Virus record (IMG/VR): IMGVR_UViG_3300035698_013589
Coordinates: 52,033-116,032 of that record
Source of the DNA: a virus
Taxonomy: Duplodnaviria > Heunggongvirae > Uroviricota > Caudoviricetes
Length of the DNA: 64,000 bases
Strand: one strand, 5' to 3'
Shown: positions 3,665 to 63,500 of the stretch, in pieces
How the letters are laid out: every line of letters starts with the position of its first letter
Numbering within the stretch: position 1 is the first letter of the stretch
Program-made: the position numbers and the translations under genes
The notes under the pieces: generated by a model
The model's input: the letters and a program-made list of their open reading frames with translations, nothing else
Database searches by the model: none
Told to the model about the DNA's origin: nothing

Positions 3665-3676
3665 GAGGAGATTAAT

Positions 3677-3919: not shown

Positions 3920-4129
3920 GGATAATTAAAGTAGTTACCAGAAACTTTGTTCTTGATTTCTTTGCTAATATTCAGAACATCTTTGGTTCTAATTTAACAT
4001 CATATGAGAAGATGGTTCAAAAAGCAATCACACAGATAGATGATGAACTAAAAGAAAAAGACATCACCCTACAATGGTATAGATATGAAATCACACAATT
4101 GACTAATGGTGCTGTAGCAGTGTTGTTGT

Positions 4130-39560: not shown

Positions 39561-39799
39561 CATTTTTCACAAAAAAATATAAAAAAAGTAACATGATAAA
39601 AGTATTTTTTGCAAAACTTAAAGCAAGAGATGAACAAGAAGCAAAATATATATTGCGTGAAAAACATCCTTTTTGTAAAATATTAACATACAGATTTGAA
39701 AAAGATTTTAAATTTGTGCCTAAAGAAAAAAGAGATTATACAAAGAGAATTATTGAAGTTGTGTTTGTGAAAAATATAAAAGATATATGGAACGATTAA
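39557..39799 (+). CDS. hypothetical basic protein
   Basis: ORF in track. Confidence 0.35.
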   Translation: MTFFTKKYKKSNMIKVFFAKLKARDEQEAKYILREKHPFCKILTYRFEKDFKFVPKEKRDYTKRIIEVVFVKNIKDIWND

Positions 39800-41139: not shown

Positions 41140-41515
41140 AATAGAATACAAACAATTTGTTGTAGTGCCTAAACATCCTAAGATGAGTACTGGTAAGATT
41201 GCAAGTCAAGTGGCTCATGCTACTTTTATGGCTCTATCTAAGAATGAAGATGGTATAATCAAAGGATGGAAAAAATCAGGAATGTGTGTTATTGTGCTTG
41301 AATGCCCAACACAAACAGAACTTATGGGTATTGCTAAATATTGTGAACAATGGGATATTCCACATCATATTTATATTGATGAAGGTATGACTGAAATACC
41401 TATGGGAACAGCAACAGCATTTGCAACAGGTGTAGTGCCTAAACATCAACATTGGATGTTTGGTCAATTAAAATTATTCACTGATAAAAAAATCAAAAAA
41501 AGAACATTTTTTTAA
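41129..41515 (+). CDS. pth2: peptidyl-tRNA hydrolase Pth2 (archaeo-eukaryotic type), copy 1
   Basis: FVVVPKHPKMSTGKIASQVAHA ... CVIVLE ... IDEGMTEIPMGTATAFA matches PTH2 fold signature. Confidence 0.8.
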   Translation: MESEIEYKQFVVVPKHPKMSTGKIASQVAHATFMALSKNEDGIIKGWKKSGMCVIVLECPTQTELMGIAKYCEQWDIPHHIYIDEGMTEIPMGTATAFATGVVPKHQHWMFGQLKLFTDKKIKKRTFF

Positions 41516-41521
41516 TTCAAC

Positions 41522-41863
41522 ATGGCACTATCATTAAAAGAAGCAAAAAAACTTGGAAATCAGTTTGCTGAAGAGTTGCAGGAAGAGTTTAAAGCTGAAC
41601 TTTCATGGTGGTTTGTCGGCTCAATAAAGGAAGGCAAATATAATGCAGGAACTTCCGATATTGATATGGTCATAATTCCAAAACATGAAGGGATGTTTGG
41701 TTATGAAGCAATAAAACGTGTTCTTGCAAAGATGGAAGAATACAAAAAATACGGAATGGTTTTTAAGAAAGGTAGAGACATTTCACTGATTGATGTAGTA
41801 ATATTTTTAAACTTAGAAACCGTAAATACTATTAGAAAAATGAACAAGGAAGTGAAAAAATGA
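41522..41863 (+). CDS. minimal nucleotidyltransferase (Pol beta superfamily MNT domain)
   Basis: GSIKEGKYNAGTSDIDMVI = GSx9-13 DxD signature. Confidence 0.55.
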   Translation: MALSLKEAKKLGNQFAEELQEEFKAELSWWFVGSIKEGKYNAGTSDIDMVIIPKHEGMFGYEAIKRVLAKMEEYKKYGMVFKKGRDISLIDVVIFLNLETVNTIRKMNKEVKK

Positions 41864-42004
41864 ATAAATTTCATTGCTTTAATTGTAAGCTATGGCACAA
41901 CGTAGAAGGTAATCAGGAAGAAGGTATGGTAAGTATCGTAAAATGTCCAAATTGCAAAAGTTTAAATAGTATTAATATTTAATCTTATTAAATAAGAGTG
42001 GTAT

Positions 42005-42385
42005 ATGATGAGAACAGGAGAAGACAAAGGATTTGACAAACTAAAGTTGGTGTGTTACATATTCGGTACTTTATTTGGACTCATGGCGTTAGGCATTCAT
42101 TTCTTTGGATTACCAAATTTTACAAATTTAGAAGAGCAAAGAGAGTTCTGTTTAGAAAATAATGGCATGATTATAGAACCAACAAGAGATAATCATAATA
42201 TAATGCTTTGTGGATTTAATCATGACGGCATGTTAGTTGAGTATGCAATGGATGAAGTGGTCAATGAAGAATGGGCTGAAGCAGTCGGTTTTGAAGTTGG
42301 TGATTATTGTTTTGGTTGTTGGGATTCTAATTCTTGTGGTTCGCCACATAATAATATTTTAAGAGAAGCAGGGGTGCATTGTTAA
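42005..42385 (+). CDS. membrane-anchored Cys-rich protein
   Basis: ORF in track. Confidence 0.4.
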   Translation: MMRTGEDKGFDKLKLVCYIFGTLFGLMALGIHFFGLPNFTNLEEQREFCLENNGMIIEPTRDNHNIMLCGFNHDGMLVEYAMDEVVNEEWAEAVGFEVGDYCFGCWDSNSCGSPHNNILREAGVHC

Positions 42386-42861
42386 TGGACGATAAATATT
42401 GTAAAGCTAAATGTCAAAATTGTGGTGATGAAGTTACAATTTTAAAAAATCATCCTTATTTTGGGATTTTATGTTCCAAATGTATGAAGGGTGGAAAGGT
42501 GTATTCAAAATGAATTGTAATAAATGCGGGAAGAGAATTATAGGTGCGGCAGTTATGTCGCCGACAACAGTTGAATCAGAAAGACAAATGTGTCCTAAAT
42601 GTGCAAAGAAAGTAATGGGTATGCATACATTTCATATTCAAGGTGGTGGTGATTCTGATGTAGGTCTTGCTGACACAGATGCACAGGTTATGATAGTAGA
42701 TAACATGGATTGGACTGAAGATATGAAAAAGGAAATGAAGTCGCTTCTAAGCGAGTTTTATGATGTTCCACAAGATTGCGTTGAAACTGATGAAGAGTAT
42801 GAAAAATTACTTGAATATGAAAGAGAAATGGAAGCGAAAGTTGAAGCTGAAGAGGTCAAAA

Positions 42862-43362
42862 ATGAAAACAATAACTGATGTAGTAAAATTATTAGGTAAA
42901 ACTAAACATAATGGAATAGCTGAACTAAGTCAAGCAGTCTATGAGAAATGCAAAGAATTTGGTATTGAAAAAACAAAAGCCAAGAGAGAAATCACAATTT
43001 TAATTGTTGATAAAACAGTAAGAAGTATTTTGAGCTGTATCAAGACAGGAAAGGGAAAATGGGAGCAATGGTCGTATAGACATGGTAAGAATTATATCAA
43101 ACTCTATGACAACGCAGTTGTGGACATATTAAGCGCCAATAAGACCACTTTGGAAGCATTTGAATATGTTGATGCACCTGAGATTAAAGTGCGTGTAAAC
43201 CCTAAGAAAGAGGGTGTGGACGCAGAACCATTTTACCATGTGTGCAAGACATTATCTGAAGCACAAGAGTATTATGAAAAAGAAGAATTTACGACAGGGA
43301 TATTCGTAGCAGTTGGCAATATTATTATCCCATTAGATGATATTGAAAAACGAAACATTTAA
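42862..43362 (+). CDS. hypothetical protein
   Basis: ATG 42862 preferred over track start inside upstream gene. Confidence 0.4.
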   Translation: MKTITDVVKLLGKTKHNGIAELSQAVYEKCKEFGIEKTKAKREITILIVDKTVRSILSCIKTGKGKWEQWSYRHGKNYIKLYDNAVVDILSANKTTLEAFEYVDAPEIKVRVNPKKEGVDAEPFYHVCKTLSEAQEYYEKEEFTTGIFVAVGNIIIPLDDIEKRNI

Positions 43363-43459
43363 ATATATGTTGTATTATACTAATTAATACAACACATATA
43401 TTAAATTACATATAAGAAAATAACGGTCAAATATGACAAGATATACGAGGTAGAACAAA
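43350..43459 (+). promoter_or_regulatory. promoter copy with 10-bp IR TGTTGTATTA-n7-TAATACAACA at start-site region
   Basis: consensus cgaaaCATTTAAATATA at 43351-43367; IR 43368-43394. Confidence 0.5.
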
Positions 43460-43795
43460 TGGAAGACATATTAGAATACACTGAAATACAAGGTTTCAAC
43501 AACGAAGACATCGTGCCAGACATCGACCCACAAGGGATTATTGATGATATTTTAGGCACAGATACGGAGTGAGGTAAAACAAAATGGAAGAAAGAAAATT
43601 GACCAACATTGAGATGTTTTTAATGTTTGTAGGACTTGCATGTCTAATTCTTGCAGTAGGATACCAAAATATAATTCTTGGTGGAGTATTTGCAGTATGT
43701 GGATTTTTTGTAGTTGCAAGTATCGTTCTTAGACGAAGCAAACAGAAAAAACAAGAAGAAGAAGGCGACAAAGAATTTTATTAAGATGAGATAAA

Positions 43796-44659
43796 ATGGA
43801 AAAATCAAGAAGGTTTGTTATAGGCGACATTCACGGCAGATTTAATCCTTTGAAAAAAGTATTAAAATTAGCCAAGTTCGATAAGGACAAGGATTTATTA
43901 ATTGTTCTTGGAGATATAGTGGATGGTGGTTTTAATACTGACAAAGTGTTAGAGCAGTTGTTGAAAATTAAAAATGTTGTGTTTATAACAGGCAACCATG
44001 ACCAATGGTTTATTGATTACACCTTTAAGGGTAGAACACCATCAGAATGGATTAATCAGGGTGGTGCTAATACTCTCAATAGTTATGGTGGAAAAGTAAT
44101 TCCAGGGAAACGGTTTCGAGATAAACCCATTTTAATTGATGTTAATGGTGTGAAAATACCAAAGAAACATATAGAATTTTTTGCGAATAGATTGTATTAT
44201 TTTGAGTTTGAGGGAATGTTGTTTGTGCATGGTGGGTATGACCCATCAAAACCGATAGCAGAACAAACACATGACATTTTGTTATGGGACAGGGATTTGA
44301 TAGCATTTGCAGGTCATTCAAAGATTCCAAAGTATGAAAAAGTTTTCATAGGTCACACAACAACACAACACATTGAAAGAGAATGGGTTAATTATAAATG
44401 TCGTGATTGTGAAAAAGAATGGTCATTAGAAATTAACACATTTGAAGATTTGCGTAATAGCAAACAAGATATTTCTTGTGAAAAATGTAGTTCAACAAAC
44501 ATATTTCAGGCGTTAGGATGTGTGAATCCAATAAAGATTGGTAATTTATTTTGTTTAGATACAGGGGCAGGATGGAATGGAAAATTATCCATCATGGATA
44601 TTGATTCAGAAGAATTTTATCAGTCGGAATTACAAGAACCAGCGATAACAAAAGAGTGA
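43796..44659 (+). CDS. PPP-family metallophosphatase (calcineurin-like) with C-terminal zinc ribbon
   Basis: GDIHG, GDIVDGG, GNHD motifs; CRDC...CEKC. Confidence 0.8.
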   Translation: MEKSRRFVIGDIHGRFNPLKKVLKLAKFDKDKDLLIVLGDIVDGGFNTDKVLEQLLKIKNVVFITGNHDQWFIDYTFKGRTPSEWINQGGANTLNSYGGKVIPGKRFRDKPILIDVNGVKIPKKHIEFFANRLYYFEFEGMLFVHGGYDPSKPIAEQTHDILLWDRDLIAFAGHSKIPKYEKVFIGHTTTQHIEREWVNYKCRDCEKEWSLEINTFEDLRNSKQDISCEKCSSTNIFQALGCVNPIKIGNLFCLDTGAGWNGKLSIMDIDSEEFYQSELQEPAITKE

Positions 44660-44907
44660 GTAGGAGGACAAGCAAATGGAAAAGTTTATGGCAATAGTGT
44701 ATAAGGAAATGGAATTGATACAACTTAAAAGTTCTGAAGAATTAGATAATTTATATCAAATCATTGAAAGTGAAGAAAATTTTATTTTACAATGGACTGA
44801 AGGGGAGAAATTAAAATCAGAAGTAATCATAGTAACGAATATCTCCAGTAAAGTAAAAACAGGAGAAATGAAATTAACTGCTCAAGAGCAGAACGGAGGA
44901 AAATAGA

Positions 44908-46317
44908 ATGATACCATTAATATTAATAGGAATTGGAATAGTAATTTTAATCGCAATTATATGCTCATTTGCATGGTATAGAATTGTAGACCCAAGTGAA
45001 GCACATTTGGTAGTAACACCATCAGGAAAATTTGTAGTATCACCTGACGAGAAAGTTGGAGAACGAAGAACATATTTCGCAATTCCAAGTTGGTTGCCAT
45101 TTGTCGGTAGAGCAATTAGAATCATGGATGTAACAATCAAAGAAATTCTAATTGAACAAGAAACAATTGAAAAGAATCAAGCAAGATACAGCGTTAAATC
45201 ATCTACAAAATATAGAGTTAAAGATGTTAAAGTTTCAGCAGAAACATTCATTAGTGATAAAGACCTACAAGAACAATTAAAAGAAATTGTTAGAGCAGGT
45301 GTAAGAGCAATCTCGGTTCAGTATGATGTTGTTGATGCAAGAGGAAACAAAAGAGACATTGAGAAAAAAATCAGAGAAGAAATTGTTGATGACTTACAAA
45401 AATGGGGTCTTGAATTAATTAACTTCCAGTTAGTTGAATTTAAAGATACTGCAGATAGTAAGATTATTTCTAACATATCACGAAGAAGTGAAGTAGAAAT
45501 TGAAGCAAGAACAAGAGAACAGAATGCTGAAAAATTAAAACAAGCTAAAATTAAAGAAGCTGAAGCTGACGAAAAATCAAAAGAAAGAGAAATTGCAAGA
45601 GATAAAGTAGTTGGTGAGAAAGAAGAGAACAAGAAACAAGCTATCGCCGAACAGCAAAAAATTGCTGAAGAAAAACGATTTGCAGTTGTTCAAGTTCAAG
45701 TAATTAAACAAGCTGAAATTGACAAAGAAAAAGCAATTGTTTTAGCAAACCAAAACAAAGAAACTGAAACTATCAACAAGGAACAGAAAAGACTTGAAGG
45801 AGAGGGTGACAGACTTAGAGCAGAAGAAGTTGCTAAGGGAGATGCCGCACCAATCTTACAGAAAGGTCTAGCTGAAGCTAAAGCAAAAGAAGCACTTCAG
45901 GAAGCTTTAAACAAGTTTGGTGATGATGCAATCAGAGCATTAGTTGCAGAGAAAGTTGTAGCTATGCAGGAAGTTGTTGGAGTTGAAACCGCTAAAGCAC
46001 TTATGAATGCTGATGTAAAAGTATTCGCAGGTGGCGGAAAAGCAGGAGAAGAAGGCTTTGAACTTGGTAAGATGATTCAGTCTATGGCTGTATCAAATTC
46101 CACAACAGCAGATGCAGTTCTGAATAAGATTGCAAGACCAAATGATTTGGGTCTTTCAGTGTTAGGTTTAGAATCTTTGAAAGATAAATCAGACAAAAAG
46201 GCAGAAGGAAAGGCTGATTTTGTGAAAAAATCACAAAAACAACCTAAACAGAGGCCAAATCAAGCTGAGTTAGCATCAAGGAATCAAAAACCTATGGGGA
46301 ACAAAAATAAGGCTTAA
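44908..46317 (+). CDS. flotillin-like SPFH/band-7 protein
   Basis: N-terminal TM, SPFH core, long EA-rich coiled coil. Confidence 0.7.
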   Translation: MIPLILIGIGIVILIAIICSFAWYRIVDPSEAHLVVTPSGKFVVSPDEKVGERRTYFAIPSWLPFVGRAIRIMDVTIKEILIEQETIEKNQARYSVKSSTKYRVKDVKVSAETFISDKDLQEQLKEIVRAGVRAISVQYDVVDARGNKRDIEKKIREEIVDDLQKWGLELINFQLVEFKDTADSKIISNISRRSEVEIEARTREQNAEKLKQAKIKEAEADEKSKEREIARDKVVGEKEENKKQAIAEQQKIAEEKRFAVVQVQVIKQAEIDKEKAIVLANQNKETETINKEQKRLEGEGDRLRAEEVAKGDAAPILQKGLAEAKAKEALQEALNKFGDDAIRALVAEKVVAMQEVVGVETAKALMNADVKVFAGGGKAGEEGFELGKMIQSMAVSNSTTADAVLNKIARPNDLGLSVLGLESLKDKSDKKAEGKADFVKKSQKQPKQRPNQAELASRNQKPMGNKNKA

Positions 46318-46340
46318 TTGCCTTAATTTTTTTATTTTTT

Positions 46341-46586
46341 ATGTCGCCTACACTGAGAAGAACATTATCTTTATTGATATTTACCATATTTAATTTAGTT
46401 GCAATCGTAGTATTACATTTGGGAGTATCAAACAAGAAGATAGTGTTTATAGGAACAATATCAATCATAATAATTCATGCATTAGAGTTAATTCATATAA
46501 CACATATGCAAGATTCATATGGTAATTTTAATATAAAAATACCATTACCGCCAAAACCAACAAACGATAAAAATGGACATAAATAA
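46341..46586 (+). CDS. small membrane protein
   Basis: TM helices. Confidence 0.4.
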   Translation: MSPTLRRTLSLLIFTIFNLVAIVVLHLGVSNKKIVFIGTISIIIIHALELIHITHMQDSYGNFNIKIPLPPKPTNDKNGHK

Positions 46587-46791
46587 TCCAAAAGACCGAA
46601 AGAATAGAGTAGAGCAGTTGCAGATATTCAACATAATACTATCTATATCAATGGCGATATACTATAGTAAAACTGGAGATATTAGATGGCCTGCATGGTT
46701 TTGGTTATTCAATATGATTATCAATATTGTATGGTTTGTAGGCAATTCACAGAGGCAAGGGAGGTTAAAACATGAAATCCAAAAAGGGTAG
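46573..46791 (+). CDS. small membrane protein
   Basis: TM helices. Confidence 0.4.
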   Translation: MDINNPKDRKNRVEQLQIFNIILSISMAIYYSKTGDIRWPAWFWLFNMIINIVWFVGNSQRQGRLKHEIQKG

Positions 46792-47143
46792 TGTAGAAGT
46801 ATGGGTAATAGGCATTTTCCTAATACTGTTAGCAATATCATTAGTATATAATGTAATTTATGCTTTCACATCAGGAAGCGAATCAATTACGATAGAAGAG
46901 AAGTGGGTTAAGTATAAAGGAGATAAAGCGAAATATCTTGTATCGACCACAAACGACCAAGTGTTTGAGATTTCAGATACTTGGATAAAAGGTAGATGGG
47001 ATAGTTCAAATCTTTATGCTAAACTTAAAGAAGGTCAAACATGTAAATTAGAAACTCAAGGCTGGCGTTTTCCGTTTTTGAGTGATTATAAAAATATAAT
47101 TACTGCAGAATGTAACGAAGCCATTGAGATGATAATACCATGA
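46772..47143 (+). CDS. membrane-anchored protein
   Basis: N-terminal TM. Confidence 0.4.
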   Translation: MKSKKGSVEVWVIGIFLILLAISLVYNVIYAFTSGSESITIEEKWVKYKGDKAKYLVSTTNDQVFEISDTWIKGRWDSSNLYAKLKEGQTCKLETQGWRFPFLSDYKNIITAECNEAIEMIIP

Positions 47144-48195
47144 ATCAACAAGAAAAGTTAAGACAAAGAAGACTTGAGCAAGAAGAAAAGCTTACACAAC
47201 GGCGTGCCGATTTAGGCATTGCAGGTCGTACAAAAAGGTTCTTTTTTGAAAAGAAAGAACAAGAAAAAATCATTGAGGATGTTCCTGTTGAAGATGTTGA
47301 AAGAGTTTTAGAAGAAAATCAAATTCAAGCTGAAGAACTTAAAAAAATTACTGAAGCGCCACCTGGCGAATCATCAGAAGAAAAAGTAAATAGGCTTAAA
47401 GTTGTTAGAACAAAGATTTTCATAAAACATAAAAAGGTCATCAACGATAGATATTCAGAAGCAACAAAAACACTTGATACTGAGTTTGGAAGAAGATTAA
47501 CTGAAGCTGAAACTGAGTATAAAGATACGATTAAAAGTCATAAGGAAGATTTAAAACAAGCTATTGAAGATGCTTATGATGTTAGCGATAAACGAGAAGC
47601 AAGAAATAATAATCGTGAATCCGTTGAGGAAGAAACTCAAGGGCATGAAGAAAATAAAGAAGCTATCGTTGAAGAACATAAAGGAAGTTTGAAAGAGTTA
47701 AAAGAAGAGCTTGAAACTAAACTTAAAGAACTTCAACAATCATTTGACAATGATATGTCAGATATTCAAGATGATACTTTTGGTGAAGCTGATATTCAAG
47801 AATGTAATAAAGAATTTGAAGCTGAAACTATCACATTTGATACACTTGAAGAATATGATTCAGGCGATGATAATTCCGATGATGATGATGATTCAAGCAG
47901 TTCAAGTTATTCAAGAGATTACAGCAGTTCAGGGCCAAACATATTTAGTATGGTGATTGGACTTATTGGGATTGCGATTGTCCTTATGGTAGGATTTACT
48001 GTTGTTAATAGTGTCACAGATGCACTAGAAGACTCAGGACAAATGACAAATTCAACAATGGAAGGAATGACATCAATATCATCATTGTTTGGTGGATTAA
48101 ATCAAACAGCATTATTGTTATTATTAGCACCATTAGGTCTTGTAATATTTTTTCAGATATTCAAGATTTTTGGTGGTAGAGGAGGATACATGTGA
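47140..48195 (+). CDS. acidic coiled-coil protein with C-terminal TM anchors
   Basis: E/K-rich, DDDDDSSSSS tract, hydrophobic C-terminus. Confidence 0.5.
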   Translation: MNQQEKLRQRRLEQEEKLTQRRADLGIAGRTKRFFFEKKEQEKIIEDVPVEDVERVLEENQIQAEELKKITEAPPGESSEEKVNRLKVVRTKIFIKHKKVINDRYSEATKTLDTEFGRRLTEAETEYKDTIKSHKEDLKQAIEDAYDVSDKREARNNNRESVEEETQGHEENKEAIVEEHKGSLKELKEELETKLKELQQSFDNDMSDIQDDTFGEADIQECNKEFEAETITFDTLEEYDSGDDNSDDDDDSSSSSYSRDYSSSGPNIFSMVIGLIGIAIVLMVGFTVVNSVTDALEDSGQMTNSTMEGMTSISSLFGGLNQTALLLLLAPLGLVIFFQIFKIFGGRGGYM

Positions 48196-48403
48196 TACCA
48201 GACTTAAAACGATTTGGAAGATATTGGGCAACATTACTAATTGCAAAAGAATTTTTGTATTTACTATTTGCCTTTGTTTTCAAGATTAGCATAAACATTG
48301 ACCATATTAGATGGACGATAGGAATTAGTTTTATTGGGGCATGGATTTGGTATGGTATTTGGTATGTAGAACATTCTGATAAAGACGAGGGGAGTAAAAC
48401 ACA

Positions 48404-48652
48404 ATGAAAACACCGATATGGATGAGATTTATACTTCATATAGAGAGCGACAACATGAGCAGATTATCATTCAAGATGGATGTGACATATTCACATTTAT
48501 CAAAAACAGCAAAAGAAATGGAAGCTAAAGGATGGTTAACAAGAATTAAACGTGGACGAGTTAATCAGTTTGCGTTAACACAAAAAGGTATTGAAATGCG
48601 ACAAGCTTGTCAAATAATAGCACAAGAAATTGGTAACGCATATCTAAAATGA
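48404..48652 (+). CDS. winged-helix transcription regulator (MarR/TrmB-like)
   Basis: SHLSKTAKEMEAKGWLTRIKRGRVNQFALTQKG. Confidence 0.45.
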   Translation: MKTPIWMRFILHIESDNMSRLSFKMDVTYSHLSKTAKEMEAKGWLTRIKRGRVNQFALTQKGIEMRQACQIIAQEIGNAYLK

Positions 48653-49005
48653 CATACACACATAAGTTAGTTGTTGTCGTTGATAACAACGTAAAGATGC
48701 CAAAGGGTAAACTTGCAAGAGAAGTAGCTGGAGCTGTGACACATGTAATTATGTATCATTGGAGCTTTTTTAAGTTTGCATCAATGCTTGCTTGGTATAA
48801 GAATGGCATGAAAACTGTCGTGCTTAAAACAGATGACATGGGTAAATTTATGGAAGATTTAAAGGTGTTTAGGATAAAACATTTTCCTATGGTAGATGCA
48901 GGTGACACAGTATTTGATGGTGTTGCAACAATGACTTGTATTGGGTTTCCTATCTGTAAAGAAGAGAAAACACCAGTAATATTACAGGAGTTAAAATTAT
49001 TATAA
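48649..49005 (+). CDS. pth2: peptidyl-tRNA hydrolase Pth2, copy 2
   Basis: KLVVVVDNNVKMPKGKLAREVAGA ... KTVVLK ... DAGDTVF...TMTCIGFP. Confidence 0.7.
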   Translation: MTYTHKLVVVVDNNVKMPKGKLAREVAGAVTHVIMYHWSFFKFASMLAWYKNGMKTVVLKTDDMGKFMEDLKVFRIKHFPMVDAGDTVFDGVATMTCIGFPICKEEKTPVILQELKLL

Positions 49006-55345: not shown

Positions 55346-55690
55346 ATGATAGTTTGTTTTGATTGTGGGAACACTAAAGTGTGTTCTATATGGGATAGAG
55401 AAAAATATCTTTGCAAGAAATGTTGGGAAAAGAGAATGGCCGCAATGAAAAAAGATTTTGAAGAAGATTCAGGGTATTATTAATGAGAAAATGTGAAGTA
55501 TGTGGGGACGATGCAGAAAAGTGTATTCTTTTCAAACCATCAGATGTATTCGTATTTTTATGCTACCCACACATGGCTAAAGTGTTAAGAGAAAAACCAG
55601 GAGAAATGCCTATTGCAAGCTGGTTAAAGACACAAAAAGCTAAACATGAATCATTACAAGCATTTTTAAAAACAATCGCTAAAGCGAACT

Positions 55691-56179
55691 TTGAGGATAC
55701 ACACAATGGATAGAGATATGAACGCACCAAATGAATGGCAATGTAGCCATTGTAAGAAAACTTACACATTCAACGAATTTATCAAGCTAAAGACTGAATA
55801 CGTCAATCCTGACAAACCTGAAGAATATGGTAAGCGATGTATCTGTGAATGCGGAAAGCCATTTCACAAGGGTAAATGGAGCATTGTAGAAGACTTTACA
55901 ACATTCCCTCATTGGTTCACTTGTCTATTATATCCTAAGATTAGGTTATCTACTGTTCATTTAGAACTTAATCACTTTGGTCATTGGTATGAAACTATGG
56001 TATTTGCAGAAGATAGATTTTTTCCTGCATTGTTACCAGTTGAAATATACATTCAAGATAGATATAAAACTCAAGATGAAGCAATTAAAGGTCATGAAGA
56101 GATACTTAGAAAACTCAGGATTGGTCAATACACTCTTACACATAATGATGACGGAAAAAGAGAGTTGAGGCTACAATGA
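55691..56179 (+). CDS. hypothetical zinc-binding protein
   Basis: ORF in track. Confidence 0.4.
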   Translation: MRIHTMDRDMNAPNEWQCSHCKKTYTFNEFIKLKTEYVNPDKPEEYGKRCICECGKPFHKGKWSIVEDFTTFPHWFTCLLYPKIRLSTVHLELNHFGHWYETMVFAEDRFFPALLPVEIYIQDRYKTQDEAIKGHEEILRKLRIGQYTLTHNDDGKRELRLQ

Positions 56180-57246: not shown

Positions 57247-57625
57247 AAAACCTTTTCCCATGGTTCACCCTGAACATTTTCAGGTAAAATTATCGAGCTG
57301 TGGGGTTAGTTCTTTTTCAGGTAGTTACAAGATTATGAAGGAAAAGGATGGGTTAGATTTGTTATTACTTGCAACACATGTAATGGCAAAAGACTTTGTT
57401 GGTAAAGACCAATCACCTACCTTAAAGTATCATTTAGCTTGTTGTTTACTTAACGGAATAAACTTCCCTGCAGAAAAGCTTTTAAAGGACATTGAGGACT
57501 CTAAAAAGTTCATGGGGCGTTGGGTTCACATTCCTAAAGAAGAGGCAGAGAAGCGACGTGAAGAAGCTGAATTGGTTGATGAGAAAGCTTTAAAAGAATT
57601 AAAGAAGACTAAAACAGGTAAATAA
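57224..57625 (+). CDS. hypothetical protein
   Basis: ORF in track. Confidence 0.4.
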   Translation: MSKEEKNKKPFPMVHPEHFQVKLSSCGVSSFSGSYKIMKEKDGLDLLLLATHVMAKDFVGKDQSPTLKYHLACCLLNGINFPAEKLLKDIEDSKKFMGRWVHIPKEEAEKRREEAELVDEKALKELKKTKTGK

Positions 57626-57764
57626 TGGTAGAAGTAGATAATTTCGAAATAGGAAAACATTTCATACAGAAGCGTTGGGTTTGTTCATGTGGAGCATCCA
57701 ACCCAGACACAAAGACATTTTGTTCTGTGTGTAAAAAGGATAGATACAAGAAAGGAAAAACAAA

Positions 57765-58034
57765 ATGAACATCTTAGAAGAAGCTAACAAAATCACGTCA
57801 GATGATAGGCAAAAGGCTTACGGCAAGCCTAAAGAGAACTTTAATCACATTGCTAAGATTGCATCGTCAATACTTGGTAAGGAAATCACTGCAAAAGAGA
57901 TTGTAATGATTATGTTTGCTACAAAATTGAGCAGGGAAATGCATTGTTCAAAACATGATAATCATGTTGATTTAGCAGGATACTCTTGGGTTTTGAATCA
58001 AGTTGTTGAAGAAGAAATACCAAAAACAGAGTAA
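57765..58034 (+). CDS. hypothetical protein
   Basis: ORF in track. Confidence 0.4.
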   Translation: MNILEEANKITSDDRQKAYGKPKENFNHIAKIASSILGKEITAKEIVMIMFATKLSREMHCSKHDNHVDLAGYSWVLNQVVEEEIPKTE

Positions 58035-58095
58035 AAACGAAACATTTAAATATAAGTTACATTATACTAACTATTATACATGGAGGTGTATACAA
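58030..58095 (+). promoter_or_regulatory. BRE/TATA promoter copy plus GGAGGTG RBS upstream of Ro60 gene
   Basis: aaacgaaaCATTTAAATATAagttacattatactaactatta; TATA-like 58045-58054. Confidence 0.55.
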
Positions 58096-59691
58096 ATGAG
58101 TAGGTTCAATAAAACAAGCGTAAGCGACAAGATTACAACAAACAAAGAAGGTTCAAAAGCATTCAAGCTAACTTCTGATTATGAATTATATACATTAGTT
58201 GCAACATCAGCACTAAATAACAAATTCTATGAAAAAACAGATGAAAGAATTGAAAGATTAAGAACTCTGATTAAGAAATGCGACCCTATGTTCGTGGCTA
58301 AATTAGCTGTGTATGCAAGGGAATCAATGTATTTGAGAAGTATTCCATTAGTATTAACTGTGGAACTTAACAAACATCTTAATGAAATCAAAGCTAAGAA
58401 AAGCATGATTACAACATTATCAACAAGAGTAATCCAAAGAGCTGATGAAATTACTGAAATCCTAGCATATTACTCACTTGCTAACAAAGCAAATGAGAAA
58501 GCTGGTGAAGCTGGTCAAGTTAAGAAATTAGCTAAATTATCAAAGGCACTTCAAAAAGGTGTAGCTAATGCTTTCCACAAATTTGATGAATATCAATTTG
58601 CAAAGTATAATAGGAAAACTGACATCAAATTAAAAGATGCATTATTCCTTACACACCCAAAACCTGAAAGTTCTACAGAAACAGAACTCTTTAAGAAAAT
58701 TGCAAGTGATACTTTGGAAACTCCTAAGACTTGGGAAGTTGAAATGTCTACTGCAAAAGGTAAAGACAAAACACCTAAACAAGTTTGGGAAGATATGATT
58801 GATTCAGGTAAACTTGGTTACATGGCTCTAATGAGAAATTTGAGAAACATTCTGCAAGCAGATGTATCCCAAAAACATGTATTCAAAGTAGCTGATATGT
58901 TAGAAAACAAAGAACTTGTTGTGAAAGCTAAACAATTACCATTCAGATTTTTGGCAGCATATAACGAACTGAAAAAGGCTTCAGGCGACTATCCTAGTGG
59001 TAGATACTCCTATTCCGATGAAACAGAAGTGACATTAAAAAATAAAGCAAATGTCACAATCATCTTGGAAGCCCTTGACAACGCAATCAAAGCATCTGTT
59101 GAAAACTTAAAAGGATTCAGCAGAGACATGAATGTAATGATTGCTTGTGATGTTTCAGGTAGTATGATGTCAAAAATCAGTCCTCAAAGTTCAATCGAAA
59201 TGTATGACATTGGATTAACTTTAGGTATGATTTTACAACATAAATGCAAGTATGTAGTTACTGGTATCTTCGGTGATACTTTCAAAACTAAAGCATTCCC
59301 AAGAGATAGTATCCTTGAAAATGTAATGAAGTTTAAGAAAATCGAAGGTGAAGTAGGTTACAGCACTAACGGATACAAAGTACTTGATTACCTAATCCAA
59401 GCAGGCGATAAAGTAGACAAAGTAATGATGTTTACTGATTGTCAAATGTGGAACAGCTCTGGATATAATAGAGATAATCTTATTCCTGCAAGATGGAACA
59501 GATACAAAGAAATTAATCCAGAAGCTAAACTTTACTTGTTCGACATGCAAGGTTACGGAGATACACCAATTGACATGATTCAAAAGGATGTATTCTTGAT
59601 TGCAGGTTGGTCTGACAAAGTGTTTGACATACTTGAAAGTCTTGAAAATGGTGAAGATGCGATTAAAGTAATTAATGACATCAAATTATAA
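58096..59691 (+). CDS. rsr: Ro60 orthologue (TROVE domain plus vWA domain; Rsr-like)
   Basis: TROVE features (RSIPLVLTVEL, LPFRFLAAYNEL like Ro60 PFHILIA...Y), vWA MIDAS MIACDVSGSM and MMFTDCQMW; ~530 aa typical size; true start ATG 58096 after GGAGGTG. Confidence 0.85.
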   Translation: MSRFNKTSVSDKITTNKEGSKAFKLTSDYELYTLVATSALNNKFYEKTDERIERLRTLIKKCDPMFVAKLAVYARESMYLRSIPLVLTVELNKHLNEIKAKKSMITTLSTRVIQRADEITEILAYYSLANKANEKAGEAGQVKKLAKLSKALQKGVANAFHKFDEYQFAKYNRKTDIKLKDALFLTHPKPESSTETELFKKIASDTLETPKTWEVEMSTAKGKDKTPKQVWEDMIDSGKLGYMALMRNLRNILQADVSQKHVFKVADMLENKELVVKAKQLPFRFLAAYNELKKASGDYPSGRYSYSDETEVTLKNKANVTIILEALDNAIKASVENLKGFSRDMNVMIACDVSGSMMSKISPQSSIEMYDIGLTLGMILQHKCKYVVTGIFGDTFKTKAFPRDSILENVMKFKKIEGEVGYSTNGYKVLDYLIQAGDKVDKVMMFTDCQMWNSSGYNRDNLIPARWNRYKEINPEAKLYLFDMQGYGDTPIDMIQKDVFLIAGWSDKVFDILESLENGEDAIKVINDIKL

Positions 59692-59788
59692 TTTTTTTTT
59701 ATTTATATTCATAATCGAAAGAAATAAAAAGGAGAACAACTCCTGTTCATGTTAATGAAGACTGAACCTCTTCATTATTTGTTTGTTT

Positions 59789-60250
59789 AATGGCGTAGAA
59801 TACGGATACTTCAAATCTGGAAAAAAACCGTATTTGTTCTTTCCTTAAATAACCTACTCATGGTGGCGTAGGTTGGTAATACTTCGAAACTGAAAATATC
59901 GTTGGGAGCAATCCCAAAACCTTACCAATCGTTTGTTCCCCTTCATTATCCTAACCAGCTATGGTGGATTATGGGAGCCAAGGATGTGCACACTAACTTG
60001 GTAAACTCAAATAGTAAACAATGGTGGCGTAGAGCACGATTTCATCGAAACTGAAACCAAATTTCAACTAAAAACTTCGTGTTTGATTGTTCCCCACTCA
60101 TATTCAAAAGGTGGCGTAGTAAAGAGTTACTTCGACATGTAATCGAGAGGCCACGGGTTCAAATCCCGTTGCATCCTTCGGGATGTATAGCTCAGTCTGG
60201 TAGAGCGCTAAAATCTCTCTTTACGATTGTTCCCCTTTCATATTCAATCA
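59789..60250 (+). ncRNA. array of five tandem structured RNA-like units (candidate Y RNAs) with conserved junction motif ...GATTGTTCCCCWYTCATATTC...(A)GGTGGCGTAG
   Basis: units start at ~59789, 59862, 59963, 60023, 60110; each has a different but internally complementary helix (ATACGG/CCGTAT, TTGGTAA/TTACCAA, GCACGA/TCGTG, TAAAGAG/CTCTTTA). Confidence 0.5.
60110..60235 (+). ncRNA. YrlA-like Y RNA candidate with circularly permuted tRNA-like module (T-arm 60153-60169, acceptor hairpin closed by TTCG 60170-60187, D-arm 60190-60206)
   Basis: ACGGG-TTCAAAT-CCCGT, TGCATCC-ttcg-GGATGTA, TA-GCTC-AGTCTGGT-AGAGC all readable; enclosed by helix TAAAGAG/CTCTTTA. Confidence 0.55.
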
Positions 60251-60409
60251 AAAAGGTGTATATACGATGAAAAAGAAAGACATAACAATGTTACCAGGTA
60301 ATGTAAAAATCACTCCTGAATTAAGAATTTTAAAACGTAATAATTATCTTAAATATCTAAGTGAGTATCAAAAACTTCTTCTATCTAATAATAAAAAGGT
60401 GCAAAAACA

Positions 60410-60742
60410 ATGGTAGAGTTTAAAGAACATCCAACTAAATGGGAATGCCCATATTGTAATGATGTGTACGATGATGAAGACGAAGCTGAAGATTGTGCAA
60501 GAGATTGTGTGTTAGATGATGTAGATTCTCCAAGAGAAGTAGAGGGGTCTGCAGACGAACACATTTGTGAATACTGCAGCAAATCATATAGAAGTAATAG
60601 TAGTGCAGTAGAGTGTGAGGAAAAGCATATTGAAAAAGAAGATATGCATTTCCAAGAAAAAGAGAGGAGAGATTCAATGCAAAAATTAGCTGAAGCTGCG
60701 GAACATCCGTCGCAAATTACACTAGAATCTTTTTCTAAATAG
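60410..60742 (+). CDS. acidic zinc-binding protein
   Basis: CPYC...CARDC...CEYC...CEEKH. Confidence 0.4.
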   Translation: MVEFKEHPTKWECPYCNDVYDDEDEAEDCARDCVLDDVDSPREVEGSADEHICEYCSKSYRSNSSAVECEEKHIEKEDMHFQEKERRDSMQKLAEAAEHPSQITLESFSK

Positions 60743-60753
60743 GTTAATTTAAA

Positions 60754-62598
60754 ATGTATTGGAACCAAGTATTTACTGAAAACGGACAGGCTTTAACGCC
60801 AAGAAAATACTCTTCTGGAAAAACTCAAGAAGATGTTATTAAAGAATGTGTAGAATATTTCTTAGAAACTCCTATAAAATTTGATGCTGAAGATAATATC
60901 AGACCTACATTTTTATTGTTAAAAGGTGGGGTTGGTTCAGGTAAAAGTTCAATCGGGTTAGGTGTTGCAAGTTTCTTTAAAAAAACACAACTTGTAGTGC
61001 CAACAAAGATTCTACAAGACCAATATAGAAATGATTATGCAGGCGACAAACCAAGAATATATATCAAAAAACCTGAAACTGGTGAAGTAGTAAAAATAAC
61101 TACACCGAAAGGGAAGAGTAATTTTAAATGTATTTTTGAAGATAGAGACATGCACGATATGAAATGCGATAATATATTATTGCCTTGTAATGTTGAATTA
61201 ATGAAGAATGAAAAGCGTGTTGATATGGCAGTTGAATGTCCGCATTGGTCTCCTGTGTATCCTGTGATTGATGAGATTAAGAATGAAAATCTTATAGAAG
61301 TTGATAACAGAAGCAAACCTATTATCTTTGAAGCTATGCGTGATTGTAAGACATATTACAGAGCTGAGAACCCTTGCAAATATAATAAACAATACGATGA
61401 AATTTTGGATTATGATGTCTTAGTTCTAAACAATGAAAAGTTTAAGATAGAGCAAATGATAGGCAGGCTTCCTCAAACAGATATTGTTATTATAGATGAA
61501 GCAGATAAGTTCCTTGACGATTTAACAGAAAAAACAGAAATTAGTATCAATCTCCTTCTCAAGAAAATTGAGAAAAAAACATTCTTGTCAAAAGATGTGT
61601 TTGAAGCAAAGCTTAATCTCCTTAAAGGATGGTGCGAAATGCATTCATATAAGAATAATGAGTCTGATGTTTTCAACATGAAAAATAGTGAATTATTAGA
61701 CCTAATAGATTTCATGGTTAATGATAAAGAAATATGTAAATTAGATGAGCTGGAACAAACAATGGCAAAAATCCAGTTCATTAAAAGGTATGTTGATGAT
61801 GCAATATTTGTAATAAAAAGAAATGAATACAATGGTAAAATATATATCAAATTCGAGATATATATCTTAAATTTTACTGAGTATATGCAAGACTTATTCA
61901 AAGGGTTCAAACATGTATTATTCATGAGTGGAACTTTTATTGAAGATAGAAATCTGTTGAAAGAGATGTATGGTATAGATAAAATCAAAACAATCAGAAC
62001 AGAGAAAACTATATCAGGTAAACTGAATGTTATGATGTCAAAGAACGCAAAATCTTATAGCAGTGCAGTAACAAAAGCTAATAGAGCCACATACCTTAAA
62101 AGTTATAATTCAGCCATAGAGTTTTGTAAACAACATGGGAAAACTCTTGTTCATGTGAAGGCATTTAAAACTGATTGTAAACAGAAAAATGATGATATAG
62201 ATAATACTAAATATCCACATATTATATATGAAGAAGACTTACGAAAATATCAAGAAGATAATGTTCCTCAAAACATTTTGAAAGATTTTAAAACAGGTGA
62301 TAATAATGTTTTATTTTCAACCAATTTTGTTAGAGGTGTGGATTTACCTGGAGACCAATGTAGATTTATAATCGTACCAAGAGCGCCATATTCATACATG
62401 GATGCTTTCTGGAAAGGATTGGCCGAAAAGTATAAAATACAAAGAAGAATAAATATATATTGGAGCTTGTATAAAGATAAGATGTGCAGAGAACTAACAC
62501 AAGCAGTTGCAAGAGGATTAAGAAGTAATGCCGATGAAGTTACTGTCGTATGTTTTGATACAAGATTGCATGAACCTTTAAATAAAATAAAGACTTAA
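60754..62598 (+). CDS. SF2 helicase, XPD/Rad3/DinG-like with putative Fe-S cluster insert
   Basis: motif I GGVGSGKS, four Cys between motif I and II (CIFED...KCDN...LPCN...ECPHW), motif II VIIDEADKF, motif VI TQAVARGLRS. Confidence 0.6.
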   Translation: MYWNQVFTENGQALTPRKYSSGKTQEDVIKECVEYFLETPIKFDAEDNIRPTFLLLKGGVGSGKSSIGLGVASFFKKTQLVVPTKILQDQYRNDYAGDKPRIYIKKPETGEVVKITTPKGKSNFKCIFEDRDMHDMKCDNILLPCNVELMKNEKRVDMAVECPHWSPVYPVIDEIKNENLIEVDNRSKPIIFEAMRDCKTYYRAENPCKYNKQYDEILDYDVLVLNNEKFKIEQMIGRLPQTDIVIIDEADKFLDDLTEKTEISINLLLKKIEKKTFLSKDVFEAKLNLLKGWCEMHSYKNNESDVFNMKNSELLDLIDFMVNDKEICKLDELEQTMAKIQFIKRYVDDAIFVIKRNEYNGKIYIKFEIYILNFTEYMQDLFKGFKHVLFMSGTFIEDRNLLKEMYGIDKIKTIRTEKTISGKLNVMMSKNAKSYSSAVTKANRATYLKSYNSAIEFCKQHGKTLVHVKAFKTDCKQKNDDIDNTKYPHIIYEEDLRKYQEDNVPQNILKDFKTGDNNVLFSTNFVRGVDLPGDQCRFIIVPRAPYSYMDAFWKGLAEKYKIQRRINIYWSLYKDKMCRELTQAVARGLRSNADEVTVVCFDTRLHEPLNKIKT

Positions 62599-62806: not shown

Positions 62807-63118
62807 ATGAAAATGGAAAATAACAAAATACAAATCAACGGAATGAATAAGAAACACTTATTTTGGATAATTCCAGTAGTGCTTATAGTTGGATTCTTTA
62901 TGGGGTCTTATGTAGTTGCATCAGGCACAGCTATCGCTATGGAACATTATCCTATAATGAGTTGCATACAAAATCTTGATATGGCACTAAATCCTATGTC
63001 TAACAAAATGCCAATCACTAAAGAAAGTCAGTATGAAGCTATTCAGTGGCGTTGTGCTAAAGAAACGGTAGATTTTAATATAACTGATTATGCAGATATT
63101 TTCGTGATGATTGAATAA
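62807..63118 (+). CDS. TM protein of IIWRC/IQWRC paralog family
   Basis: KKHLFWIIPVVLIVG TM, C-terminal AIQWRC. Confidence 0.45.
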   Translation: MKMENNKIQINGMNKKHLFWIIPVVLIVGFFMGSYVVASGTAIAMEHYPIMSCIQNLDMALNPMSNKMPITKESQYEAIQWRCAKETVDFNITDYADIFVMIE

Positions 63119-63251
63119 TGCCATTTGTGGAAAACACACCACTTAGACCTGCATTCTGTCCCTATTGTATAGATGGGTATGTTGTCTTAGATAGACATAC
63201 AAAGATTCCTTGTTGCGCAGTTTGTAATCAAAAAATTCTATTAGAAGAACG

Positions 63252-63500
63252 CTAATCAGCAATCGCTGCAATAATTATAACTCCTAATAAAAAGATTAAC
63301 AATCCTACTATAATTGTAACGAACATTATTGTTGGGAACCATACAACCCACCAAGGCATTGTGTATTTCAGTCCATAGTGTAAGAAAAACATCACACATT
63401 GAATCAATACATAACCTGGTTTTGGTATCAATGAATTAGTAACATTATTTTTAACTTTTTCTTTGTCTATCTTAATCACCTTTGTGTTCTGGGTCTTCAT
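63252..63500 (-). CDS. small membrane protein
   Basis: ORF in track, minus strand, two TM helices. Confidence 0.4.
   Translation of the reverse strand: MKTQNTKVIKIDKEKVKNNVTNSLIPKPGYVLIQCVMFFLHYGLKYTMPWWVVWFPTIMFVTIIVGLLIFLLGVIIIAAIAD

What the first reader, a model, noticed from the sequence alone, without database searches (positions are those of the whole stretch)
59789..60250. Five tandem units with invariant junction motif and covarying internal helices
Each unit begins with (A)GGTGGCGTAG (unit 3 has a variant). Each ends with TTTG(A)TTGTTCCCC-WY-TCAT(T)ATTC. Between these ends the sequences differ, but each contains its own perfectly complementary helix: ATACGG/CCGTAT, TTGGTAA/TTACCAA, GCACGA/TCGTG, TAAAGAG/CTCTTTA. 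This is compensatory covariation and argues for a conserved RNA fold. Several units share a central CTTCGAAACTGAAA element. The invariant junction could be a processing site that releases individual RNAs from one precursor.
Basis: seen in the sequence. Interest (0 to 1): 0.7.

Follow-up and report, generated by a model that had tools for sequence, protein, structure and literature searches.

The report
Phage Y RNA genes beside Ro60
The repeats are four small non-coding Y RNA genes lying directly after a phage copy of the Ro60 RNA-binding protein; this is a known protein-RNA partnership, so it is a well-supported but fairly ordinary example that standard annotation tools miss.

Summary
Window 59784-60241 (+) holds four RNA units, not five. 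They start 93 nt after the stop codon of a Ro60/Rsr orthologue (58096-59691; TROVE + Ro60-vWA).

It is the two strands of each unit's closing stem: 5' U-GGCGUAG and 3' CG-N-UUGUUCC. This corresponds to the published Ro60-binding motif GNCGAA(N0-1)G with one base changed. The covarying helices are the 7-bp stem P2 just above it.

A covariance model built only from other phage contigs finds exactly these four units in the 64 kb (40-53 bits). It does not find "unit 3" (59948-60017). Units 1, 2 and 4 are short Y RNAs. Unit 5 is YrlA-like, with T arm, closed acceptor-like stem and D arm. ARAGORN and Rfam mis-call part of it as tRNA-Thr.

Across 85 units chosen by sequence pattern alone, 88.5% of cells pair (59% when shuffled). 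Of 66 loci fetched by RNA pattern alone, 62 encode Ro60, with every unit on its strand. Arrays of 4-8 units are common there.

Verdict: a new member of a known kind. Ro60 binding, processing and tethering to partner proteins are inferred.

The parts
58096..59691 (+). Ro60/Rsr orthologue (531 aa; TROVE ring + Ro60-type vWA domain with MIDAS-like DVSGS)
   Evidence: Pfam TROVE 1.8e-31 and vWA_Ro60 1.1e-8. PHROG 850 'RNA-binding protein' 1.8e-52. PDB phmmer hits to Thermus phage phiLo Ro60 (9L5Y/9KOP, 2.9e-24) and X. laevis Ro60 (1YVP, 2.5e-5). The start MSRFN is shared with the relative in L003.
59753..59777 (+). AU-rich hairpin (AAUGAAGA/UCUUCAUU) followed by AUUUGUUUGUUU, between Ro60 and unit 1. 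It could be a weak terminator or a stabilising/processing hairpin. Its 3' side, CCUCUUCAUUAUU, resembles the 3' ends of the units.
   Evidence: RNAfold of 59700-59790: -16.4 kcal/mol, z = -2.06. The terminator scan did not call it because it has few G-C pairs. Function not established.
59784..59852 (+). Y RNA unit 1 (short type). P1 59786-59790/59845-59849; bulged U 59791; GG 59792-93 with CC 59843-44; CGUAG 59794-98; P2 59799-59805/59828-59834; AUACUUC 59806-12. Its 3' strand UGUUCUUUCC diverges from the consensus.
   Evidence: R1 covariance model (built without any window sequence): 52.6 bits, E 2.4e-13, full-length match. RNAfold gives the same stems.
59857..59947 (+). Y RNA unit 2 (short type with an extra apical hairpin UUGGGAGCAAUCCCAA). 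Bulged U 59864; GGCGUAG 59865-71; P2 59872-59879/59922-59929 (8 bp); CGU-UUGUUCC 59930-39. P1 is weak, with two non-standard pairs.
   Evidence: R1 49.9 bits, E 1.5e-12; P2 7/7 pairs.
59948..60017 (+). It shares only ATGGTGG with units 2 and 4. It may be a decayed copy or plain spacer.
   Evidence: No R1 hit with default filters. With filters off the best score is -0.2 bits. No Rfam match at E up to 10. No similar sequence in any fetched locus. Fold z-score -0.99.
60018..60101 (+). Y RNA unit 4 (short type). Bulged U 60025; GGCGUAG 60026-32; P2 60033-39/60077-83; UGA-UUGUUCC 60084-93; V-like hairpin UUUCA-UCGAAAC-UGAAA 60040-56. P1 is weak.
   Evidence: R1 40.5 bits, E 9.8e-10; P2 7/7 pairs.
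60105..60241 (+). Y RNA unit 5, YrlA-like (tRNA-like effector domain). P1 60107-11/60234-38; bulged U 60112; GGCGUAG 60113-19; P2 60120-26/60217-23; V hairpin 60131-47; T arm 60153-69; closed 7-bp acceptor-like stem with UUCG loop 60170-87; D arm 60190-60206; CGA-UUGUUCC 60224-33.
   Evidence: R1 53.3 bits, E 1.6e-13. Rfam YrlA partial hit 60146-60209, 35.7 bits, E 2e-5, below the gathering score of 69. It aligns full-length with 31 long-type units from other contigs; the consensus shows P1, P2, T, AS and D stems, and 23 of 31 pairs covary. ARAGORN 'tRNA-Thr' 60109-60179 and Rfam tRNA at 30 vs 29 bits are mis-calls of part of this RNA.

Best explanation
The region is an array of four Y RNA genes (three short, one YrlA-like) on the coding strand, starting 93 nt after the stop codon of a phage Ro60/Rsr gene.

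Each RNA closes on itself. Its 5' end (P1, a bulged U, then GGCGUAG) pairs or packs against its own 3' end (CG-N-UUGUUCC, then P1'). This forms the conserved Ro60-binding module. Above it lie a 7-bp stem of variable sequence (P2), the conserved (U/A)UACUUC, and an apical 'effector' module that differs from unit to unit.

Shown here: the fold, its covariation, its family, and its strict linkage to Ro60 genes.

Inferred from published Ro60/Y RNA systems:
- The phage Ro60 ring binds each RNA through the GGCGUAG strand.
- The RNAs are cut out of a longer transcript at the short U/A-rich linkers.
- The different apical modules gate Ro60 or tether it to different partners. Candidates are host PNPase, as in D. 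radiodurans, Salmonella and Thermus phage phiLo, and for unit 5 a tRNA-binding factor.
- The complexes reshape or repair RNA during infection.
For: - Context: TROVE + vWA_Ro60 protein at 58096-59691, same strand.
- Independent model: R1 was built from 38 non-window short units. It finds exactly four hits in 64 kb, all on the + strand, E 1e-9 to 1e-13.
- Covariation: on 85 cores chosen by sequence pattern with no pairing criterion, 88.5% of cells pair against 59.1% when shuffled. The covariation score is 0.762 against 0.208 (0 of 500 shuffles reach it), and slid registers give 43-52%. 13 of 15 pairs show double changes. My own partner-swap control gives P2 6.05 vs 4.10 and P1 5.22 vs 2.79 pairs.
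- Linkage to Ro60: 62 of 66 loci fetched by RNA pattern alone encode a Ro60 homologue; 115 of 115 units lie on its strand, median distance 306 nt. All 121 R1 hits in 86 Ro60-fetched loci are on the Ro60 strand.
- Unit 5 has T, AS and D arms and aligns full-length with 31 long-type units.
- The motif GGCGUAG is the published Ro60-contact motif GNCGAA(N0-1)G with one change (PMC4201824). GGCGAAG variants occur in the same architecture (L129, L166, L190).
- Phage Ro60 binding adjacent Y-like RNAs and host PNPase has been shown for phiLo (PMC12135203).
Against: - There are no expression, end-mapping or binding data for this phage.
- The motif is CGUA, not the canonical CGAA.
- Unit 5 does not reach Rfam's YrlA gathering score (35.7 vs 69).
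- P1 of units 2 and 4 has two non-standard pairs each, and unit 1's 3' strand departs from the consensus at 3 of 10 positions, so some copies may bind weakly or be decaying.
- No convincing promoter for the array was found.
- Single-sequence fold z-scores are unremarkable, -0.7 to -1.95. Support for the fold therefore comes from comparison with homologues, not from thermodynamics.
Confidence: 0.9

Rival explanations
1. Unit 5 is a genuine tRNA-Thr(UGU) gene, and the other units are tRNA pseudogenes or fragments.
For: ARAGORN calls tRNA-Thr at 60109-60179. Rfam tRNA scores 30.0 bits against a gathering score of 29. A homologous stretch in Xanthomonas phage 10KY502B is annotated tRNA-Thr in GenBank.
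Against: The Rfam tRNA alignment marks four non-standard pairs in the 'acceptor stem' and a truncated D arm. The supposed acceptor 5' strand is the invariant GGUGGCG of all four units. The real D arm (60190-60206) lies downstream of the T arm, which is the YrlA order: T arm, closed acceptor-like stem, D arm. The whole 137 nt aligns with 31 long-type units, with covariation in P1, P2, T and AS. In 10KY502B the 'tRNA' is one of five R1 hits directly upstream of a TROVE gene.
Confidence: 0.02
2. The repeats are a structured RNA family of phages that travels with Ro60 genes but does not act through Ro60. Examples would be decoys for host anticodon nucleases or other tRNA-targeting defences, or processing/stability elements of the operon mRNA.
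For: Unit 5 mimics the tRNA elbow. The window also encodes a CCA-adding enzyme, a calcineurin-like phosphoesterase and a Band-7 protein, genes tied to RNA repair. No binding data exist.
Against: The most conserved part of every unit, long or short, is not the tRNA-like part. It is the closing stem carrying the Ro60-contact-like motif. 94% of pattern-fetched loci carry Ro60 on the same strand, at a median distance of 306 nt. The short units have no tRNA-like domain at all.
Confidence: 0.06
3. The region is protein-coding (mechanical ORFs 59902-60054 and 60079-60270), or is a DNA-level repeat such as protein-binding sites or att/recombination sites.
For: Two ORFs of 50 and 63 aa overlap the units on the + strand.
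Against: Neither ORF has a Pfam match, even at E up to 1. Both start inside RNA stems and run across unit boundaries. Variation across the family is compensatory within the helices, which is a constraint on RNA rather than on a protein or on double-stranded DNA. The family occurs only on the Ro60 strand, which argues for a transcript.
Confidence: 0.01

Closest known systems
Salmonella Typhimurium YrlA and YrlB (rsr-yrlB-yrlA-rtcBA operon); Rfam RF02553 for YrlA
   Same: The RNAs lie 3' of the Ro60 orthologue on the same strand. One has a tRNA-like module in the order T arm, closed acceptor-like stem, D arm, and there are shorter companions. A G-N-C-G-x-A-G motif sits near the 5' end, and a conserved YUAY follows the stem (here UUAC/AUAC).
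   Different: There are four RNAs instead of two. The motif is GGCGUAG rather than GNCGAAG. The 3' strand (CG-N-UUGUUCC) is also strongly conserved here, whereas Chen et al. could recognise only the 5' strand in Salmonella and M. smegmatis. Unit 5 falls below Rfam's gathering score, and no YrlA match reached it in any of 15 related loci. The setting is a phage, with no RtcB/RtcA/RtcR nearby.
Thermus phage phiLo Ro60 with Yrl1/Yrl2 (PMC12135203; PDB 9KOP, 9L5Y)
   Same: A phage-encoded Ro60 with adjacent Y-like RNAs. The proteins are homologous (phmmer 2.9e-24). A stem-bulge-stem RNA carries a CGxA motif. The phiLo RNAs were shown to bind phiLo Ro60 and host PNPase.
   Different: The phiLo RNAs lie upstream of the gene, number two, and carry CGAA. 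Here four lie downstream and carry CGUA, and one has a full tRNA-like domain, which that paper does not mention for Yrl1/Yrl2.
D. radiodurans Yrn1/Yrn2 and M. smegmatis YrlA/YrlB (PMC4201824)
   Same: Several Y RNAs are clustered next to rsr and made from one polycistronic precursor (with tRNA-Asp in Deinococcus). Related phage loci here likewise interleave Y RNAs with tRNAs (L229). The 7-bp closed acceptor-like stem of unit 5 resembles that of M. smegmatis YrlA, which is cut by RNase P and receives CCA.
   Different: Those RNAs lie upstream of rsr. The Deinococcus Ro-binding helix resembles the metazoan one. [quoted passage not shown]
Metazoan Y RNAs
   Same: The 5' and 3' ends pair into a stem with a bulged nucleotide and a conserved Ro60-contact strand (GGUCCGA there, GGCGUAG here). 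The apical region varies and is thought to recruit partners, and a species has several paralogues (2-4 in vertebrates).
   Different: There is no detectable sequence homology. Metazoan Y RNAs are separate Pol III genes with oligo-U tails that bind La, and none has a tRNA-like domain.

Membership tests
Bacterial/phage Y RNA (criteria of Chen et al. 2014, PMC4201824) | Encoded within about 4 kb of a Ro60/TROVE gene and on the same strand | tested here: met
   The units lie 93-550 nt downstream of the Ro60 stop codon, on the + strand. The same holds across the family: 115/115 and 121/121 units on the Ro60 strand.
Bacterial/phage Y RNA (criteria of Chen et al. 2014, PMC4201824) | GNCGAA(N0-1)G motif near the 5' end (the presumed Ro60 contact strand) | tested here: not met
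   All four units have GGCGUAG, with U in place of the first A. Members with GGCGAAG in an otherwise identical architecture exist (L129, L166, L190). This is therefore a one-base variant of the motif, not a different module, but the literal motif is absent.
Bacterial/phage Y RNA (criteria of Chen et al. 2014, PMC4201824) | The 5' and 3' ends pair into a long stem, with internal loop(s) and an apical module; size roughly 80-130 nt | tested here: met
   P1, GG/CC and P2 are supported by covariation. Unit sizes are 69, 91, 84 and 137 nt including 1-2 flanking nt, so unit 1 is somewhat short.
Bacterial/phage Y RNA (criteria of Chen et al. 2014, PMC4201824) | Bound by Ro60/Rsr in vivo, with accumulation that depends on Ro60 | not testable with these tools
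   Needs immunoprecipitation, EMSA or genetics.
YrlA (Rfam RF02553) | Score at or above Rfam's gathering threshold (69 bits) | tested here: not met
   35.7 bits, covering model positions 24-84 only. No YrlA match reached the threshold in any of 15 related phage loci either.
YrlA (Rfam RF02553) | tRNA-like effector domain in the order V arm, T arm (GGUUCRAAUCC), closed acceptor-like stem, UA, D arm (AGCUCAG..GGUAGAGC) | tested here: met
   Unit 5: V 60131-47, T 60153-69, AS 60170-87, UA 60188-89, D 60190-60206. The stems are recovered by RNAalifold on 32 sequences, with covariation in T and AS.
YrlA (Rfam RF02553) | Modified by tRNA enzymes (TruB pseudouridine 55, DusA), with an L-shaped tertiary fold | not testable with these tools
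   Experimental.
tRNA (Rfam RF00005 / ARAGORN) | Cloverleaf with a paired 7-bp acceptor stem formed by the RNA's own 5' and 3' ends, and the arm order D, anticodon, T | tested here: not met
   Rfam scores 30 against a gathering score of 29, but four acceptor pairs are non-standard and the D arm is truncated. The true D arm lies 3' of the T arm.
Ro60/Rsr protein | TROVE HEAT-repeat ring plus a C-terminal vWA domain with a MIDAS motif | tested here: met
   Pfam TROVE and vWA_Ro60 both score above their cut-offs. DVSGS (a DxSxS motif) is present in the translation. PDB homologues are 9KOP/9L5Y and 1YVP.

The most novel reading that the evidence does not exclude
Tandem arrays of Y RNAs may be a general, so far undescribed feature of phage Ro60 loci. 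The window has four units, and up to eight R1 hits occur in other phage contigs. The units share one Ro60-binding module but carry different apical modules: a V hairpin only, a V hairpin plus an extra hairpin, or a full tRNA-like domain. Some relatives even have a circularly permuted form embedded in a tRNA with a CCA end. On this reading the array is a set of interchangeable adaptors that lets one phage Ro60 ring be directed to several host machines or substrates during infection. The short 'YrlB-like' class defined here (model R1) would be a large RNA family that is not in Rfam.
Probability: 0.35. Interest if true: 0.6.

Novelty: new member of a known kind. Interest (0 to 1): 0.35.

Why it matters
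Ro60 with Y RNAs is a conserved RNA-surveillance module, known from humans (the lupus/Sjögren autoantigen) to bacteria and some phages. What the phage versions do is barely studied.

This locus adds a clean example with four co-linear Y RNAs. More usefully, working it out produced three practical results:

- A covariation-supported consensus for the Ro60-binding module (P1, bulged U, GGCGUAG / CG-N-UUGUUCC), together with a model that finds short Y RNAs. The published searches targeted only the tRNA-like YrlA type, and the authors noted that other Ro60-bound RNAs had eluded bioinformatic discovery.
- Evidence that such arrays are common and unannotated. One sits in a cultured Xanthomonas phage, where a unit is labelled tRNA-Thr, so the predictions can be tested at the bench.
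- A warning that tRNA finders produce false tRNA calls inside these RNAs.

Tried and rejected
- Tandem Repeats Finder finds no array at 58000-62000, because the units are too diverged.
- Megablast of 20 kb against GenBank phages found nothing, so there is no close cultured relative.
- Rfam at gathering thresholds reports only a marginal tRNA. YrlA appears only as a sub-threshold partial hit.
- Coding reading: ORFs 59902-60054 and 60079-60270 have no Pfam match.
- Junction tail as a window-wide promoter or signal: WATATTCA occurs 20 times against 19.3 expected, and TCATWATYC 9 times against 6.9. Rejected.
- Sigma-70 promoter and terminator scans gave nothing convincing for the array.
- 'Unit 3' as a divergent Y RNA: rejected.
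- My first relaxed geometric scanner was non-specific (780 hits against 661 on reversed sequence). I dropped it in favour of the covariance model.
- The broad pattern TGGCGTAG-N6-10-TACTTC alone returned mostly chance matches, so longer three-block patterns were used. My own rough estimate of chance matches for those patterns is about 2-3, against 30 and 41 observed.
- A tRNA-like RNA next to the Band-7 gene (the 'b7a-tRNA' idea): nothing at E up to 1 in 39000-49000.
- The Annual Review on bacterial Ro60 (PMC10870794) is not held in the library. I therefore could not check what it says about the number of Y RNAs per locus.

Full report
**What is in the sequence.** Window 59700-60260 is non-coding. 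It lies on the coding strand of a low-GC (about 32%) stretch in which every long ORF is on the + strand. That stretch carries phage-type replication genes: a DNA polymerase, a clamp-loader-like AAA protein and a helicase. GGCGTAG occurs six times in 64 kb against 0.6 expected. Four copies lie at 59792, 59865, 60026 and 60113. Exact TTGTTCCCC on the + strand occurs only at 59933, 60087 and 60227.

**The missed clue.** The ORF that ends at 59691 is a Ro60/Rsr orthologue. Pfam gives TROVE (1.8e-31) plus the Ro60-type vWA domain. It matches PHROG 850. It is homologous to the solved Ro60 of Thermus phage phiLo and to Xenopus Ro60. Its true start is the ATG at 58096, since the N-terminus MSRFN is shared with a relative. 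Ro60 proteins bind small non-coding Y RNAs. In bacteria and phages these are encoded next to the gene on the same strand (PMC4201824; PMC12135203).

**Anatomy of a unit.** Comparison with relatives gives this consensus:

- P1, a stem of 4-14 bp (mostly 4-9) with variable sequence
- one bulged U
- GG
- CGUAG
- P2, a 7-bp stem with variable sequence
- (U/A)UACUUC
- a variable apical part
- P2'
- CG-N-UUGUU
- CC, which pairs with the GG
- P1'
- a U/A-rich, G-poor tail of about 8 nt

They are not a junction signal. GGCGUAG is the published Ro60-contact motif GNCGAA(N0-1)G with U for A. GGCGAAG versions occur in the same architecture in L129, L166 and L190.

**Test with an independent model.** I built covariance model R1 from 38 short units taken only from other contigs, with P1, GG/CC and P2 as the structure. 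On the whole window it gives exactly four hits, all on the + strand:

| Unit | Coordinates | Bits |
|---|---|---|
| U1 | 59784-59852 | 52.6 |
| U2 | 59857-59947 | 49.9 |
| U4 | 60018-60101 | 40.5 |
| U5 | 60105-60241 | 53.3 |

"Unit 3" (59948-60017) scores 0 bits or less even with filters off. It has no similar sequence in any fetched locus. It is a spacer or a decayed copy.

**Unit 1.** It keeps the exact geometry of the family. Its 10-nt 3' strand is UGUUCUUUCC instead of CGNUUGUUCC.

**Covariation.** To avoid circularity I took units chosen by sequence pattern alone (TGGCGTAG-N7-8-TACTTC...TTGTTCC), with no pairing criterion. I cut out the apical part and aligned the 58-nt cores without gaps (85 sequences). 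For the 15 pairs:

- 88.5% of cells are standard pairs, against 59.1% when partners are shuffled.
- The covariation score is 0.762 against 0.208, and 0 of 500 shuffles reach it.
- Registers slid by 1-3 columns give 43-52%.
- 13 pairs show changes on both sides.

Within the window, each 5' strand pairs 7/7 with its own partner and 2-4/7 with another unit's. Single-sequence folding energies are not exceptional, with z from -0.7 to -1.95. The support for the fold is therefore comparative.

**Linkage to Ro60.** Of 66 loci fetched purely by RNA pattern, 62 encode a Ro60 homologue in the stretch held. All 115 units there lie on its strand, at a median distance of 306 nt. In 86 loci fetched by Ro60 homology, all 121 R1 hits are on the Ro60 strand, directly flanking the gene.

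**Unit 5.** This unit is the tRNA-like (YrlA-type) member. It has a V hairpin, a T arm, a closed 7-bp acceptor-like stem with a UUCG loop, a UA dinucleotide and a D arm. It aligns full-length with 31 long-type units, and RNAalifold recovers P1, P2, T, AS and D with covariation in 23 of 31 pairs. It does not reach Rfam's YrlA threshold (35.7 vs 69). No YrlA match reached that threshold in any of 15 related loci either. ARAGORN's tRNA-Thr and Rfam's 30-bit tRNA hit cover GGUGGCG through the T arm and are artefacts.

**Units 1, 2 and 4.** These are short.

**How common is this?** Arrays are the rule in this clade:

- The closest Ro60 relative (57% identity, L194) has four units right after the gene: short, short, long, short.
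- R1 gives 214 hits in 68 pattern-fetched loci. By my count from that table about 20 loci have four or more, and the maximum is eight, in L178.
- The cultured Xanthomonas phage 10KY502B has five hits directly upstream of an unannotated TROVE gene. One of them is labelled tRNA-Thr in GenBank.

In the papers I could read, phage Ro60 loci are described with one or two Y-like RNAs. I found no description of such arrays, but a key review was not available.

**Mechanism.**

- Shown: a conserved fold with a conserved closing module, present in four copies, strictly linked to Ro60.
- Inferred: Ro60 binds the GGCGUAG strand. The RNAs are excised from a longer transcript. Apart from the 70-nt gap between U2 and U4, the linkers are only 3-10 nt, no terminator separates the units, and the next ORF starts about 25 nt after U5. 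Polycistronic Y RNA precursors are known in Deinococcus and M. smegmatis.
- Also inferred: the different apical modules gate Ro60 or tether it to partners such as host PNPase, and for U5 to a tRNA-binding factor.
- Weak points: P1 of U2 and U4 has two non-standard pairs each, U1's 3' strand diverges from the consensus, and no promoter was identified.

**Verdict.** The interpretation needs correcting: four units, not five, and the "junction" is the Ro60-binding stem. This is a phage Ro60-Y RNA locus, a new member of a known kind and typical of a widespread, poorly annotated group.

Noticed in passing
L003 6272-6410; L242 5037-5173: These are tRNA-shaped RNAs with a 7-bp acceptor stem plus ACCA, a D arm and a T arm (Rfam tRNA 45 and 52 bits over about 135 nt). 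The anticodon arm is replaced by a circularly permuted Y RNA Ro60-binding module: P2', CGU-UUGAACC, P1', a loop, P1, U-GGCGUAG, P2, AUACUUC and a V hairpin. They are conserved in two contigs and lie after two YrlA-like units. ARAGORN does not call them. I found no description of them in the papers I read.
   Followed up: partly
L274 (Xanthomonas phage 10KY502B, OQ622092.1) 2040-2630 and 2671-3990: Five Y RNA model hits in tandem lie directly upstream of a CDS annotated 'hypothetical protein' that is in fact TROVE + vWA_Ro60. GenBank labels one unit tRNA-Thr, and ARAGORN calls another tRNA-Glu. Ten related Xanthomonas/Xylella phages matched unit 5 as well. This is a cultured system in which the predictions could be tested.
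   Followed up: partly
window 39787-41139, 43796-44659, 44908-46317: The window encodes a tRNA nucleotidyltransferase (CCA-adding enzyme; PHROG 2244, 8.6e-38), a calcineurin-like phosphoesterase and a Band-7/SPFH protein. Published comparative work links these gene types with Ro60 in RNA-repair systems. Yet no genuine tRNA gene is found in the 64 kb, and no tRNA-like RNA lies next to the Band-7 gene.
   Followed up: partly
L098 595-760, L113 3106-3273, L178 3774-3941, L155 5441-5588: Some long-type units carry CCACCA followed by an extra hairpin inside the acceptor-like stem-loop. This looks like an encoded CCA end, and suggests RNase P/CCA-type splitting into two halves, as reported for M. 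smegmatis YrlA.
   Followed up: no
L229 4600-6800; L194 25-2925; L060 4140-7490: Ro60/Y RNA loci in related phages sit beside, or are interleaved with, large tRNA gene arrays. L229 has at least six Y RNA units with tRNAs between and after them. L194 has 13 (ARAGORN) to 17 (Rfam) tRNAs upstream of Ro60.
   Followed up: no
15 related loci: Rfam's YrlA model (RF02553) reaches its gathering score in none of the phage loci that clearly contain YrlA-type units. Rfam has no family for the short type. Standard annotation therefore misses this whole group.
   Followed up: partly
window 59730-59782: Two hairpins lie between the Ro60 stop codon and unit 1. The 3' side of the second, CCUCUUCAUUAUU, closely resembles the 3' ends of units 2, 4 and 5 (CCCCUUCAUUAUC). 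It may be a remnant of a further unit or a shared 3'-end signal.
   Followed up: no
window 55346-55713, 57625-57768, 60410-60742, 63118-63255: Several small ORFs around the locus encode CxxC...CxxC zinc-ribbon-like peptides. Only 60410-60742 was scanned, and it gave just a sub-threshold zf-BED hit (E 0.008).
   Followed up: no
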